IMG/VR virus record: IMGVR_UViG_2778261559_000026
Strand: one strand, 5' to 3'
From: a virus
Lineage: Duplodnaviria; Heunggongvirae; Uroviricota; Caudoviricetes
Length of the DNA: 31,691 nt
Below, one piece after another: positions 24,901 through 27,900 of the stretch. The position numbers are program-made. Numbering within the stretch: the stretch's first letter is position 1; every line of letters begins with the position of its first letter.

Positions 24901-27900
24901 TCAGTTTCTCTTCCAGATAATTCCAACGGTCAACCAGTTGGCGAGTAAATTCCGGTACGTTTTGAGCAATCAAGACAATCGAATCTAAGCGACCTTGCTC
25001 ACCCTCAAACACATAATCTTTAACAGTAACAGCAAACCCTAAGTTATTGATTTTCTCGAAATTCTGCGTTGCAGGTTTTCGGATAACTTGGCGTTCAACC
25101 AGTCGGTTCATAGAAGTTTCAAGGTTTGAAAAACGAACTCCAATAAGGTCGGCAATTTCACGAAGAGTCATTTTTGCAACTTCGTTATCAACAACCAGAG
25201 ACACGGAAGCAGTTTTAACAGCAGTATTCATAGTAGTAACAGTATTCATAGTAGTAATTCCCCTTAAACGGTTTTGCGATAATGATATTGATCCTCCTAG
25301 TTCCGGCAGCATCACCGGAACAATTTTATTTATAAGAAGTTTTTATCTCATTTAGATTCAGCAATCGCGCGATCAATTTCTTCTTGAATGCGACGCTGGC
25401 GTTCATGGAAGTCAACCATTGAGAAATTCAGGTTTGGGGTCCACGGTTTGCGGTTCGGGTTTTTGCGTCCATCAATTTTCTTAGTAGTGTTCATAATTAA
25501 CATCCTCTTTACAGTTCTAGGTCAAATATGATCAAGGTTGTCAAGTGCGATGATCATAAAAAAGTAAGAAATTTTTGTCAATACACCTTGACAAGACACC
25601 AAAGGGTTGACCTAACTTACAGAATATCTAAGCCTTCATCGTAACCGTAGAAGCCATTCTGAGAAGAGAAACAGATTGGTGCGTAGTCGTCGTCATCTTC
25701 GTCTTGTTCATCTTCTTCTGGGGCTTCCTGAGCGGTTTCTTTACCGTAGTTAAACATTGCTTCATCCAGTTCATAGACAGTAACGAAGCTACCCAGGTCA
25801 ATGTCACCGGAACGGACTTCAAACGGAAGATCATCACGAACAATAATTGCTGGTAGATTCTGGTACTTTAAGCGTTCTTCATCGGTGAAGACGTTAACAA
25901 CAATGGTCGGCTTCTTATTACGGTGGAAGGCATACCATGCACTAGAGAAATGAGATTCATCAGAGTTGAAAAGAATGTTGTGACCACGTTCACGGAACAT
26001 CTTCATTAACTTGTCATTGTGGAAGCTATCAGCATCAAAACCTAACAGGATGAAAGGAGTAGTGGTAGTCATTTTATGGTTCATAGTGGAAATCCTCTAA
26101 AAGAAAGTGAATCAATCTAATATTATTTATAAAGAGAAAATTCTTGTTATTATGAAAGGTGATTGTATTCAGTCGGGCAAAGCCCTCCTTCATGATTTGA
26201 TTAAATCATCATCAAAACGAAGAAGTATCTTTAGAATATAAGAATCTTTCTTTTGGAGAAATAATAATCAGGAAGCAATTTAGCAACCGAAGGTTGCAAT
26301 CCCGAAGGGATACCAATACCTTTCTAGAAAGTGATTGTTACTCACTTCGTTCGTTTACTAGAATCAGTTAGTAACTAGTATTAAATCCCTTTCTAAGAAA
26401 ATCCTTTCAAAAGTGATTCTCGATGCCACGCAGTGGCGTCGCAGACGTTTGAGAGTGAGCGAAGCGAGCGAGCAAACTAGTTAATTCCTTCTAAGACCAT
26501 CTAGTATCATCTAGTTTAAATTAGTTGTTACTAGAAGTAATTGGTTAGCGCTTCGCGCAGTCGGGCAAAGCCCTCCTAATATCTTTTTGGTTATTTTTGG
26601 TTTTACACATGAGCGTAGCGAATGTGTTATATAATATCTATGCACGCCGAATCCCCCGCCCTTACCCCTACCTAATTTAATGTTTTATAAAGAGTTTTTC
26701 TCACCAATCCTTTTCGGGGGAAAATTTCAGGGGCAAAAATTAGATTTTCAGGGGCAATTATTGGCATTTCAGGGGCAAAAATGAGGGGCAAAATCACTGT
26801 TTCCCAGAAATTTCAGGGGCAAAAATAGTAGGTTTCAGGGGCAAAAATAGGATAGTAGAATCTTGGGATTTTGTTCGGGGGCAATTCCCATCAAATATTT
26901 TGATAGAAAATTATTGTATATTATTTAACCACAAAATCACCAAAAAGTGGTTTAAGCTAATGATTTAAAAGGAATAATCAAAAGGTCTCCGTGCCATAAT
27001 AGGTTATAAAGGTTGATAATCCTAATCTACCATTTTCAAACAAAAATTTTGATAGTCACCTCTCGCTTAGATCATGTGTGTTGACATGTGTCAAGAACTA
27101 TTTTATGCTTTTTATCACTGGTAAGGGTTGAAATTTTCAAAACAATCCCCATATAGATGATAAGCATGATTTTTTCGTGTATAAATACATGCATGAAAAA
27201 TGATTGTTCACTTCTGAAAATCTCCTGACTCACTGTTAACTCATACAGCACTGGTTAGATATGCAGTGCTTTTTTCGGTTGAATATTGTACGGATTGATT
27301 AATTATTAATCTTCTCTTTAGCAATTCGTGCTCCCACTGATCGGATATACAGTGGTTTTGCAGGGTTTTTCGAAAAACATTTTATAAATAGAATTGTTCA
27401 GAGCGAAAAGCTCTTTTTTAAGATTTTTTAAACCTAACAATGAGGGATTAAAAATGGCTAAACCTGTACGATTCACACGAGAAGTATTACTCCCGATTGC
27501 TAAACGTTATTTTGAAGCGATGCAGGGTGACAAGCTGGCGGTTTTGAAGGAAGAAGGGATTGACCCCTCTGATTTTAGAAAACTGCTAAAACGATATGAC
27601 ATTAAAGTGAAGATTGAAGCTACCGTTTGGTAATCAACTTTGACTGAGAATTATATGATGGCTTTAAAAATAAAAAAGCCCCCTTGCGGCAACAAGGAGG
27701 CTTTTGCGATGAACAATTAAAACTAACTTTCCACAGGAGTATTTATAATGTTATTTTCCGCTAACTTTTTCACTAACGAAGTAACCAACGCTAAAGCAGT
27801 TATCAAATTTGGCACCGAAGCAAACAAGAAGATTCAGCCGAAAGTTGTTGCTCATGTTTCCTTTGCGCAGCAGAAATCCGCTTTCGCTGGCTTTAAAGCA

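What the first reader, a model, noticed from the sequence alone, without database searches (positions are those of the whole stretch)
26170..26588. CTAG-rich non-coding segment bounded by 20-bp direct repeats
Identical 20-mers CAGTCGGGCAAAGCCCTCCT (each with a GGGC-AAA-GCCC hairpin) flank about 380 bp without a credible ORF. The segment holds seven CTAG tetramers, which are strongly avoided in enterobacterial DNA, plus palindromes (TTTCTAGAAA, GTAACTAGTA, AACTAGTTAA resembling TrpR-type ACTAGT half-sites) and tandem GAA-loop hairpins. The structure suggests a bounded insertion, a structured RNA gene, or dense operator sites.
Basis: seen in the sequence. Interest (0 to 1): 0.55.

Follow-up and report, generated by a model that had tools for sequence, protein, structure and literature searches.

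The report
Conserved hairpin-rich control segment beside prophage origin
The CTAG-rich stretch is real and is a highly conserved, hairpin-packed non-coding control cassette beside the probable replication origin of a common but unstudied E. coli prophage; its 74-bp core also occurs in virulent RB49-like (T4-type) phages, and it is not an inserted mobile element.

Summary
Exact 20-mers lie at 26170-26189 and 26558-26577. Seven of the window's 41 CTAGs fall between them, and no credible ORF is present.

The window is a ~30-kb E. coli prophage present in 57 of 5,426 complete genomes. The segment sits in a 1.3-kb non-coding region between divergent operons, just left of an iteron array, an AT-rich tract and an ORFan protein whose presence tracks the iteron type.

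Relatives show a mosaic of modules, not an insertion. A 74-nt core (26197-26270) is 99-100% identical across the family while the flanking gene is 57-70% identical. The same core occurs four times in RB49, always pointing at the downstream gene.

In both lineages the core is followed by GC-rich triloop hairpins, in tandem pairs after four of the five copies. Those pairs are all three such pairs in RB49 and one of two in this window.

The 20-mers are one allele pair of boundary stem-loops. The right one is replaced elsewhere by a canonical + strand terminator.

CTAG is a by-product of AT-rich palindromes, a 10-bp slippage repeat and an AAAGTGATT repeat array.

Best reading (about 0.45): a rightward non-coding transcription unit with operator repeats, feeding into or controlling the origin. 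There is no Rfam match, and function is unproven.

The parts
26126..26153 (+). Promoter-like site P1: TTTATA, 16-nt spacer, TATTAT, with TG before the -10. It would start a rightward RNA near 26160.
   Evidence: The same site is called in sister locus L005. Type C alleles have TTTATA-16-TAATTT. Consensus match only; not shown to be active.
26170..26189 (+). 20-mer copy 1: left boundary stem-loop (GGGC-AAA-GCCC at 26175-26185) with conserved flanks CAGTC and TCCT.
   Evidence: Alleles in relatives are GGGC-ATA-GCCC, GGGC-TAAA-GCCC and GGC-TTC-GCC, with the flanks conserved.
26197..26270 (+). 74-nt conserved core. It contains the dyad TTGATTAAATCATCATCAA, the invariant block CAAAACGAAGA-N3-ATCTTTAGAA (a weak promoter-like TCATCA-17-TAGAAT at 26209-26237), a T-rich stretch and TAATCA. 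It can fold as one long hairpin.
   Evidence: It is 99-100% identical across the prophage family while the adjacent gene is 57-70% identical. It is 75-82% identical to four RB49 copies. Covariance model R1 scores 97 bits here and 73-87 bits for the four RB49 copies, with no other hits. Pair counts: 94% paired against 33-55% for slid partners, with two covarying pairs.
26283..26311 (+). Tandem GC-rich triloop hairpins GCAACC-GAA-GGTTGC and ATCCC-GAA-GGGAT (CCGAAGG mini-hairpin motif).
   Evidence: GC-rich triloop hairpins follow the core in every allele and paralogue with unrelated stem sequences, as tandem pairs after four of the five core copies. Such tandem pairs occur only twice in this window and three times in RB49, all three next to cores.
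26320..26418 (+). Repeat and palindrome array: CTTTCTAGAAAG (26320-26331), AAAGTGATT at 26328-26336 and 26410-26418, and inverted TACTAG/CTAGTA arms (26356-26380). Further co-oriented AAAGTGATT-like copies lie at 26104, 26156 and 27197.
   Evidence: In locus L032 this part is four copies of CAAAGTGATy; type C alleles have extra copies.
26423..26447 (+). Overlapping GCA-triloop hairpins GATGCCAC-GCA-GTGGCGTC and CGTC-GCA-GACG. This is the start of the part linked to iteron type.
   Evidence: The type B allele has ACGCC-GTA-GGCGT at the same place, with a compensatory U-A to C-G change.
26459..26556 (+). 3' domain. GCGAAGCG (26459-26466) is complementary to CGCTTCGC (26549-26556). These enclose AACTAGTT, the 10-bp tandem unit CATCTAGTWT (26498-26517) and an AT-rich imperfect palindrome (26500-26535).
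   Evidence: The RNAalifold helix is conserved in alleles A, B and C, with changes compatible with G-U pairing on the + strand. The 10-bp unit varies from 1 to 3 copies among relatives. Palindrome I8.
26548..26588 (+). Right boundary: tandem hairpins GCGC-TTC-GCGC (26548-26558) and 20-mer copy 2 (26558-26577, hairpin 26563-26573), then AATATC and TTTTT (26584-26588).
   Evidence: In iteron type 2 loci this is replaced by ACGGCTACGCCGT ATTCTTTTTG, which is called as a + strand terminator. In L021 it is GCGCCC-CGCA-GGGCGC followed by ATAATATCTTTG.
26606..26628 (+). Hairpin ACACAT...ATGTGT enclosing a GC-GTA-GC mini-hairpin. It lies between a TTTACA and a TATAAT that are 22 nt apart.
   Evidence: Read from the sequence. 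Conserved in type A and C alleles.
26712..26886 (+). Iteron array: about 8 copies of TTTCAGGGGCAAAA, with most successive full copies 21-22 bp apart or twice that. It is followed by an AT-rich tract (26887-27080) holding an 8/9 DnaA-box match at 26925.
   Evidence: Iteron type (CAGGGGCAA, GTGTAGG or CGGGGA) switches together with the downstream protein and the right half of the segment.
27081..27109 (+). Best sigma-70-like promoter of the region (TTGACA-17-TATGCT), overlapping the palindrome TTGACATGTGTCAA. It drives the rightward operon.
27748..28704 (+). 318-aa ORFan protein whose presence tracks the iteron type. It is the candidate iteron-binding or initiator protein. It has a coiled coil and a conserved C-terminal tail.
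   Evidence: It is 91-100% identical wherever CAGGGGCAA iterons occur, and is replaced by an analogous 333-aa protein with GTGTAGG iterons. Only 13 relatives exist among 1.84 billion representative proteins. No Pfam or PDB match. The AlphaFold model was unusable, with pLDDT 44.

Best explanation
The segment is a non-coding control cassette of the prophage's early and replication-origin region, and it is read rightward.

Proposed mechanism: a promoter at or just left of the conserved core (P1 at 26126-26153 and/or TCATCA-17-TAGAAT at 26209-26237) starts a non-coding RNA. That RNA begins with the boundary stem-loop and core and runs through two CCGAAGG hairpins and a repeat/palindrome array. It ends at a second tandem hairpin pair (20-mer copy 2) plus a T-tract, immediately before the iterons.

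The AAAGTGATT repeats and CTAG palindromes would be binding sites for a phage regulator that sets how much transcription occurs. The hairpins and terminator would set how much reaches the origin and the rightward operon. This resembles transcriptional activation of ori-lambda, or the promoter-plus-unwinding-element origins of T4.

The 20-mers are boundary stem-loops of this unit, not target-site duplications.

Shown: conservation, modular architecture, hairpin maintenance, orientation, the terminator in sister alleles, and linkage to the iteron/protein module. Inferred: that the promoter fires, that the RNA exists, and that it acts on the origin.
For: 1. Strong purifying selection. The core is 99-100% identical while the neighbouring gene is 57-70% identical.

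2. The same 74-nt core occurs in only two lineages across the viral, genome and metagenome scans: this prophage family and Krischvirus. All four RB49 copies point at the downstream gene (ORF164c twice, gene 3, gene 36).

3. The core is always followed by GC-rich triloop hairpins whose stems differ completely among five versions, in tandem pairs after four of the five copies. Genome-wide such pairs are exclusive to this context: 3 of 3 in RB49 and 1 of 2 in the window. In three of the four RB49 copies the hairpin closing the unit is called as a terminator on the same strand.

4. The right end is a hairpin plus T-tract in every allele, and a canonical + strand terminator in type 2 loci.

5. Substitutions in predicted helices are G-U-compatible on the + strand. 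There are 2 + 2 compensatory pairs. The only polymorphic core positions in the family are predicted pairing partners.

6. Fold z-score is -5.3.

7. Co-oriented AAAGTGATT repeats are spread over both promoter regions and vary in number among alleles.

8. The 3' half switches together with iteron type and the 318-aa protein.
Against: - There are no expression data.
- The core promoter-like site matches only 8 of 12 consensus positions, and its 'spacer' is the most conserved block, which is unusual for a plain promoter.
- In this window's allele the T-tract starts 10 nt after the last hairpin, so it fails the terminator scan.
- The - strand also folds well (z = -4.4).
- Most helices never vary, so covariation support is thin. 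RNAalifold prefers a different local fold for the core.
- Copy-number change of the 10-bp unit and the dyad symmetry are equally expected for DNA-protein sites.
- C-GNA-G triloops are a hallmark of stable DNA hairpins rather than RNA hairpins (PMC13037366).
- The role of the 318-aa protein as initiator is inferred only from its linkage to iteron type and by elimination.
Confidence: 0.45

Rival explanations
1. A purely DNA-level element. The segment would be an accessory part of the replication origin or operator region: an array of protein-binding repeats (AAAGTGATT, CTAG palindromes, the dyad in the core) plus extruded or single-strand hairpins that act as priming or initiation signals, like the ssi sites of RSF1010 or the G4 complementary-strand origin. 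Any transcript would be incidental.
For: - Five of the window's eight C-GNA-G triloop hairpins with stems of 4 bp or more lie within 275 bp here.
- CCGAAGG is the mini-hairpin of RSF1010 ssiA, and such hairpins mark the G4/St-1 origins and N4 promoters (PMC13037366).
- The segment directly abuts the iterons and AT-rich tract.
- The 3' half is linked to the iteron/protein type.
- The 10-bp unit varies from 1 to 3 copies, and the repeats are co-oriented with variable number.
- Dyad half-sites co-vary (TTGAT/ATCAA against TTGGT/ACCAA) as expected for a dimer site.
Against: - The core and hairpins occur in RB49 upstream of ordinary genes, always co-oriented. Three of the four copies end in terminator-like hairpins with T-tails on one strand. 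That fits a transcription unit better than an orientation-free DNA site.
- T4-type phages prime with their own primase and need no ssi signal (general knowledge).
- G-U-type substitutions are tolerated only on the + strand.
- No primase or ssi-recognising protein is identifiable in the prophage.
Confidence: 0.3
2. A stand-alone trans-acting regulatory RNA gene: an sRNA or immunity RNA in the manner of P4 CI, P1 c4 or N15 CA. The core would supply the promoter and 5' part, and the tandem hairpins would serve as a stabilising or terminator module. RB49 would then carry four short paralogues of about 60-100 nt, and the prophage one long version.
For: - The units are self-contained: an upstream stem-loop, the core, and one or two hairpins with a T-rich tail. 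Two such units lie in tandem in RB49.
- An AAUAAUAAU (ARN-type) stretch lies before the hairpins.
- The topology (promoter, structured RNA, terminator, then replication genes) resembles P4 immunity (general knowledge).
Against: - No Rfam family matches, even at E up to 10.
- The supposedly transcribed 'seed' is less conserved than the upstream block.
- No convincing target complementarity was found. The best case is 12 of 14 nt between the 20-mer and 27694-27707.
- The prophage version lacks a terminator right after the first hairpin pair.
Confidence: 0.12
3. A mobile or recombination cassette: a MITE/PATE-like or PeSL-type insertion bounded by the 20-bp direct repeats, gained or lost by recombination between them.
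For: - The direct repeats are identical and hairpin-forming.
- The prophage demonstrably exchanges DNA with RB49: a PeSL-type terminator at 97% identity, a tail-fibre gene, and an LprI-like gene at 94.6% identity.
- PeSL stem-loops mediate such exchanges in RB49 and phi1 (PMC2839356).
Against: - No empty-site or precise-deletion allele was found in 5,426 complete E. coli genomes or in about 35 related loci.
- There are only two copies in the window.
- The two copies lie in different mosaic modules, and their loops vary independently.
- No ORF is carried inside.
- There is no near-consensus promoter of the kind PeSLs have (PMC4122927).
Confidence: 0.04

Closest known systems
PeSL (promoter-early stem-loop) regulatory cassettes of RB49/phi1 and other T4-type phages (PMC2839356, PMC4122927)
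   Same: Both are short portable non-coding cassettes that combine a GGGC/GCCC-type stem-loop with promoter-like DNA. Both are repeated in Krischvirus intergenic regions and sit at mosaic junctions. The prophage also shares a genuine PeSL-type terminator with RB49 (11328-11361, 97% identity).
   Different: PeSLs have a near-perfect TTGACA-N17-TATAAT promoter and flank ORFan genes. Here the conserved block is not a consensus promoter (8 of 12). The order is core first, then tandem triloop hairpins. Nothing coding is enclosed, and no deletion or mini-circle alleles were found. The two PeSL papers were only term-searched, and that search found no mention of the RB49 loci that hold the core.
Transcription-dependent phage origins: ori-lambda activation by PR transcription with the oop RNA nearby, and T4 oriF/oriG (promoter plus unwinding element forming an R-loop primer). 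This comparison rests on general knowledge.
   Same: A promoter-driven non-coding transcript is aimed at or ends beside an origin. AT-rich DNA lies downstream of the -10-like element. The three RB49 loci lie within a few kb of the genes that flank T4 oriE, oriF and oriG.
   Different: No experimental origin mapping exists for either phage. The positions in RB49 are not those of the T4 origins. Tandem triloop hairpins and a conserved 74-nt core are not features of the T4 or lambda origins.
Single-strand initiation (ssi) signals and DNA mini-hairpins: RSF1010 ssiA (CCGAAGG), G4/St-1 oric, N4 hairpin promoters (PMC13037366)
   Same: There is a cluster of C-GNA-G triloop hairpins, including two CCGAAGG, next to an iteron array, as in RSF1010 oriV.
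   Different: No cognate primase or N4-type RNA polymerase is present. The hairpins are mostly on one strand, not a facing pair. The same hairpin module occurs in RB49 away from any iterons.
RNA-based phage immunity or leader regions (P4 CI, P1/P7 c4, N15 CA)
   Same: The layout is similar: a promoter, a structured non-coding RNA, a terminator, then replication or anti-repressor genes, with short repeated sequences flanking the RNA.
   Different: There is no sequence or structure match in Rfam. No complementary seqA/seqC-like targets were found.

Membership tests
PeSL cassette | A stable stem-loop (often polyG/polyC) followed by an AT-rich stretch and a near-consensus sigma-70 promoter | tested here: not met
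   The stem-loop and AT-rich DNA are present. The promoter-like sites reach only 8 of 12 (core) or 9 of 12 (P1, upstream of the stem-loop). RB49 PeSLs are near-perfect (PMC4122927).
PeSL cassette | Pairs of cassettes flank ORFan genes and generate deletion or mini-circle variants | tested here: not met
   No ORF lies between the repeats. No precise-deletion allele was found in 5,426 E. coli genomes or in the related loci.
Known RNA families (Rfam 15, including C4/CI-type immunity RNAs and phage sRNAs) | Covariance-model match at or near the gathering score | tested here: not met
   There were 0 hits at gathering thresholds over the whole window. Within 25900-27800 only sub-threshold chance-level hits appeared (best 26.6 bits against a cut-off of 49), and none fell on the core.
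TrpR-type operator | Match to the palindromic consensus GTACTAGTTAACTAGTAC (two ACTAGT-centred half-sites) | tested here: not met
   No match with up to 3 mismatches. The best site in the intergenic region has 6 of 18 mismatches.
MITE / PATE / REP-like mobile element | Multiple dispersed copies and presence/absence polymorphism with clean empty sites | tested here: not met
   Only two 20-mers are present, both in this region. The 20-mer scan of viral contigs found only this prophage family plus one unrelated GC-rich contig. No empty site was found.
Iteron-type replication origin (for the adjacent 26712-27080 region) | Direct repeats at about two helical turns, an adjacent AT-rich unwinding region, and a cognate initiator whose specificity matches the iterons | tested here: inconclusive
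   Spacings of 21, 21, 44 and 22 bp, and the AT-rich tract, are met. The downstream protein switches with iteron type. That protein has no recognisable initiator fold or family. The only DnaA-box-like site is an 8/9 match, at chance level.
ssi / mini-hairpin priming signals | A stable C-GNA-G DNA hairpin recognised by a primase on single-stranded DNA | not testable with these tools
   The hairpin motif is strongly enriched: 5 of 8 in the window. Recognition and priming cannot be computed.
Structured non-coding RNA (generic) | Helices maintained by compensatory change across homologues | tested here: inconclusive
   GC-rich triloop hairpins are kept through total stem turnover in five versions. 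Within alignable parts only 2 + 2 pairs change on both sides, most pairs never vary, and two competing folds exist for the core.

The most novel reading that the evidence does not exclude
The 74-nt core plus tandem-hairpin unit could be a portable cis-element, such as a special promoter or R-loop origin, or a small RNA gene, that is recognised by factors of RB49-like virulent phages. The prophage would carry it next to its own origin so that its control region or replication responds to infection by those phages, or exploits it. That would be cross-talk between a temperate siphovirus-like prophage and T4-type phages. The two lineages also share the receptor-binding tail-fibre gene and several accessory genes.
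Probability: 0.08. Interest if true: 0.8.

Novelty: new variant of a known kind. Interest (0 to 1): 0.45.

Why it matters
The prophage family is common in E. coli: about 1% of complete genomes, and thousands of contigs carry its marker protein. It has no cultured or annotated relative, and none of its replication or regulatory genes is recognisable. The segment is the most conserved DNA of its control region, so it is the natural entry point for learning how this phage is regulated and replicated.

The discovery that its core, together with a tandem-hairpin module, is shared with virulent Krischvirus phages defines a previously uncatalogued non-coding element (no Rfam family). It is exchanged between temperate and T4-type phages. 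If the core is a promoter/origin module or an RNA gene, it adds a second kind of portable regulatory cassette beside PeSLs. It would also give a testable handle on early or origin transcription in RB49-like phages, which lack T4's middle-mode system.

Tried and rejected
- **Near-identity searches.** Searches of 26000-27000 in the phage and plasmid collections found nothing. Only the distant mode revealed the RB49 match.
- **Rfam.** Gathering and permissive thresholds gave nothing usable.
- **Core-pattern scans.** The genome-representative hits and the metagenome hits outside the two lineages were coding-sequence chance matches.
- **Proteins shared with RB49.** None looks like a regulator. Only the tail fibre, the LprI-like protein and two HPR ORFans are shared. 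The downstream RB49 genes have no counterpart in the prophage.
- **The 59-aa HTH-like protein.** A weak Pfam hint to the T4 gp33 coactivator (E = 0.03) was not confirmed by direct comparison.
- **The 318-aa protein.** PDB, Pfam, PHROG and an exhaustive HMMER search gave no function. The AlphaFold model was too poor to search with (pLDDT 44).
- **Literature.** Searches on RB49 origins, Krischvirus transcription and the literal sequence motifs found nothing relevant. The Desplats 2002 RB49 paper is not held.
- **Other signals considered from memory and dropped.** These were sigma-E/32/28/54, MotA-box, boxA/nut-like, IHF, DnaA-ATP box and oriC 13-mer resemblances in the core. All matched weakly or inconsistently across the five core versions.
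- **cos/pac reading of the iterons.** A Nu1-like small terminase (29415-29969) has its own GC-rich palindrome upstream at about 30095. That is a likelier cos, so this reading was set aside.
- **T4-type late promoters.** TATAAATA occurs 7 times in the window, close to chance (about 4 expected).
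Full report
**Observation**

The sequence is as described. CAGTCGGGCAAAGCCCTCCT occurs exactly twice, at 26170-26189 and 26558-26577. No further copy exists with up to three mismatches, and none is expected by chance.

CTAG is depleted in the window as a whole: 41 found against 76 expected from dinucleotide shuffles. Seven of the 41 lie at 26324-26534.
- Against the rest of the window the expectation is 0.44 (Poisson P = 4.5e-7).
- Against the segment's own dinucleotide content the expectation is 1.9, and 69 of 20,000 simulations reach seven.
- No other stretch of this length has more than three.

No ORF above 44 aa lies inside. Both strands fold better than shuffles, with z = -5.3 for the + strand and -4.4 for the - strand.

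**Context**

The window is a ~30-kb prophage. Its genes, in order:
- a large serine integrase (2537-3949);
- a tape-measure protein and other tail genes;
- a 1,142-aa tail fibre that is 80-87% identical in DNA to the distal long-tail-fibre gene of RB49-like phages;
- capsid, portal and a lambda gpA-type large terminase (21256-23163);
- a Rha-like protein;
- a Nu1-like small terminase (29415-29969);
- an LprI-like protein.

The element lies in the chromosome of 57 of 5,426 complete E. coli genomes and never on a plasmid. In strain PI7 it sits next to a truncated hicB and yncJ. No phage or plasmid record resembles the region at high identity.

The finding sits in a 1.3-kb non-coding region (26085-27393). 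On its left is a leftward operon (155-aa, 51-aa and Rha genes). On its right is a rightward operon (a 59/79-aa HTH-like protein and a 318-aa protein) that has its own good promoter, TTGACA-17-TATGCT, at 27081-27109.

**The neighbouring iteron array**

Directly right of the segment are about eight TTTCAGGGGCAAAA repeats, mostly 21-22 bp apart or multiples of that (26712-26886), followed by an AT-rich tract.

In related loci the iteron type is CAGGGGCAA, GTGTAGG or CGGGGA. The 318-aa protein is 91-100% identical wherever the first type occurs. With the second type it is replaced by an analogous 333-aa protein with the same coiled-coil and C-terminal tail.

This layout, together with the lack of any other replication gene, makes a replication origin plus initiator the most economical reading. 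That step is an inference. The protein is an ORFan: 13 relatives among 1.84 billion representatives, no Pfam or PDB match, and an unusable structure model.

**Comparative anatomy of the segment**

Pattern scans recovered about 35 homologous loci from viral contigs and metagenomes. Their alignment shows a mosaic of modules.
- *Left part (about 26167-26400).* It is present in every relative, and 26200-26300 is 99-100% identical. The adjacent 155-aa gene is only 57-70% identical at the DNA level.
- *Right part (about 26400-26577).* It comes in at least three unrelated-looking versions that switch together with the iteron type.
- *The two 20-mers therefore lie in different modules.* Their flanks (CAGTC and TCCT) are conserved, but the loops vary independently: AAA, ATA, TAAA or a shortened GGC-TTC-GCC on the left, and AAA, TAC or TAAA on the right. 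The exact identity seen in this window is one allele combination.
- *Right boundary alternatives.* In iteron type 2 loci the right copy is replaced by ACGGCTACGCCGT ATTCTTTTTG, which the terminator scan calls on the + strand. In L021 it is GCGCCC-CGCA-GGGCGC followed by ATAATATCTTTG.

A synthetic query joining the flanks across a single 20-mer found no contiguous match in any complete E. coli genome. The 'bounded insertion' reading is therefore rejected.

**The core shared with Krischvirus**

A distant BLAST search showed that 26196-26270 is about 81% identical to unannotated intergenic DNA of RB49-like phages. In RB49 there are four copies:
- two in tandem between ORF165c and ORF164c (97763-97689 and 97612-97540);
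- one upstream of gene 3 (62882-62809);
- one between genes 35 and 36 (150000-150074).

Each copy points toward the downstream gene. A covariance model of the 74-nt core finds exactly these four copies and the one in the window, and nothing else in RB49, the window or phage DCP80. Pattern scans of viral, genome-representative and metagenome collections found the core only in these two lineages.

The two lineages also share other DNA:
- a PeSL-type terminator (11328-11361, 97% identity);
- the tail-fibre gene;
- an LprI-like gene (94.6% identity over 387 nt);
- two small accessory ORFs.

DNA exchange between them is therefore established.

**Hairpin evidence**

In every version the core is followed within about 10-45 nt by short GC-rich triloop hairpins whose stems are unrelated, as tandem pairs after four of the five core copies.

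| Version | Hairpins |
|---|---|
| Prophage | GCAACC-GAA-GGTTGC + ATCCC-GAA-GGGAT |
| Locus L032 | GACGCTC-CCT-GAGCGTC + GC-GAA-GC |
| RB49 genes 3 and 36 | GTGCC-TAC-GGCAC + GTCGC-RAA-GCGAC |
| RB49 copy 1 | ACTCC-GTA-GGAGT + TCGC-GAA-GCGA |
| RB49 copy 2 | a single hairpin, TCCGC-TAC-GCGGA |

A genome-wide count shows how specific this is. RB49 (164 kb) has only three tandem pairs of GC-rich triloop hairpins, and all three are the ones after cores. The window has two: the pair after the core, and the pair that ends the segment (GCGC-TTC-GCGC plus 20-mer copy 2).

Five of the window's eight C-GNA-G triloop hairpins lie within 26283-26558. In three of the four RB49 copies the hairpin closing the unit is called terminator-like on the element's strand.

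The unit therefore has a common plan: an upstream stem-loop, the core, and one or two hairpins with a T-rich tail. The prophage version looks like the same plan expanded by about 240 nt.

**Structure tests**

For the core, a long-hairpin model pairs TGATTAA with TTAATCA and CAAAACGAA with the T-rich strand. It gives 94% paired cells, against 33-55% with slid partners, and two pairs change on both sides (CG/AU/GU/GC and CG/UG/UA). Within the prophage family the only polymorphic core positions are predicted partners.

RNAalifold instead prefers the local dyad, where TTGAT/ATCAA changes to TTGGT/ACCAA. That pattern is equally what a dimeric DNA-binding site would show.

For the whole segment, RNAalifold finds a conserved GCGAAGCG/CGCTTCGC closing helix and hairpins with two compensatory pairs. 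Several changes are tolerated only as G-U on the + strand. Most pairs never vary, so this is suggestive rather than decisive.

**What the CTAGs are**

All seven sit in self-complementary or repeated contexts:
- the centres of CTTTCTAGAAAG and AACTAGTT;
- the arms TACTAG/CTAGTA;
- the 10-bp unit CATCTAGTWT, which is present in 1-3 copies in different relatives;
- the arms of an AT-rich imperfect palindrome (26500-26535).

A better-conserved repeat is AAAGTGATT. It is co-oriented at 26104, 26156, 26328, 26410 and 27197. In locus L032 four copies of CAAAGTGATy replace most of the middle of the segment, and only one of them carries CTAG. Type 2 alleles keep the architecture with three CTAGs.

CTAG enrichment is therefore a by-product of palindromes and repeats in AT-rich non-coding DNA. 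No TrpR-like operator exists.

**Interpretation**

The best-supported reading is a rightward non-coding transcription unit with embedded operator repeats, ending just before the probable origin (confidence about 0.45).
- *Shown:* conservation, modularity, hairpin maintenance, orientation, terminators in sister alleles and in RB49, and linkage of the 3' half to the iteron/protein module.
- *Inferred:* promoter activity (P1 matches 9 of 12 with a TG motif; the core site matches 8 of 12), the existence of the RNA, and its action on origin firing or the rightward operon.

The rivals are these.
- *A purely DNA-level operator or origin-accessory region with ssi-like mini-hairpins (0.3).* It is favoured by the C-GNA-G bias and the CCGAAGG motif of RSF1010 ssiA (PMC13037366).
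- *A trans-acting sRNA or immunity RNA (0.12).*
- *A mobile cassette (0.04).*

**Comparison with known systems**

The element works most like PeSL cassettes (PMC2839356, PMC4122927) and like transcription-coupled phage origins. It fails the defining PeSL features: no consensus promoter, no enclosed ORFan and no deletion variants. It matches no Rfam family. I therefore rate it a new variant of a known kind of phage regulatory cassette, with function unproven.

Noticed in passing
window 26712-26886 (and L005, L021, L032): An iteron array (TTTCAGGGGCAAAA, about 8 copies, mostly 21-22 bp apart) followed by an AT-rich tract. Relatives carry different iterons (GTGTAGG, CGGGGA). L032 has an extra TTGTACATC array. 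Iteron type switches together with the downstream 318-aa ORFan protein.
   Followed up: partly
window 11328-11361: A terminator, AGCCATCCTTCGGGGTGGCTTTTTTGTTT, is 97% identical to the stem-loop of an RB49 PeSL (RB49 98968-99000). In RB49 that stem-loop is followed by a perfect TTGACA/TATAAT promoter.
   Followed up: partly
window 30323-30709, 1056-1765, 11924-15352: Several segments are shared with RB49. The LprI-like gene matches RB49 ORF260c (94.6% nt identity over 387 nt). Two small ORFs are about 45% aa identical to the hyperplastic-region ORFans ORF194c and ORF190c. The distal long-tail-fibre gene is also shared. This implies repeated exchange between a temperate prophage and virulent T4-type phages.
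   Followed up: partly
window 6050-6823 (-): A homing-endonuclease-like ORF (PHROG 314, E = 4e-25) sits inside the tail gene module.
   Followed up: no
window 27748-28704: In the 318-aa protein the coiled-coil unit LEEKDQIIEAQKAEIEKLKAA is present in 1-4 copies in different homologues. The family has only 13 relatives among 1.84 billion representative proteins.
   Followed up: partly
window 27081-27109: The strongest sigma-70-like promoter of the region (TTGACA-17-TATGCT) overlaps a perfect 14-bp palindrome, TTGACATGTGTCAA, which is a likely operator. The 79-aa ORF probably starts at 27454 (59 aa). It is a paralogue (42% identity) of the 85-aa ORF at 23855-24112.
   Followed up: partly
window 30095-30107: A GC-rich hairpin/palindrome, GTCGC-GTA-GCGAC, lies within GGGGGGTTAATAGTCGCGTAGCGACCGCGCC, about 130 bp upstream of the Nu1-like small terminase gene. 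It is a candidate cos site. The small and large terminase genes are 6 kb apart, which is unusual.
   Followed up: no
L009 (IMGVR_UViG_3300028327_000058), reverse strand 4848, 5845, 7002, 8899: An unrelated 64% GC phage contig carries the identical 20-mer (and near copies) as the 3' end of an ~80-nt intergenic repeat placed just upstream of genes. This may be coincidence or a shared stem-loop plus CCUCCU motif.
   Followed up: partly
window 26603-26636: TTTACA and TATAAT hexamers lie 22 nt apart, separated by a hairpin (ACACAT...ATGTGT) that encloses a GC-GTA-GC mini-hairpin. They form a promoter only if the hairpin is extruded.
   Followed up: no
L029 47434-47850 (RB49 97434-97850): RB49 carries two tandem copies of the core unit upstream of ORF164c, a DprA/Smf-like protein judged by motif. 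A T4-style early promoter (GTTTAC-16-TACTGT) lies directly before the first copy.
   Followed up: partly
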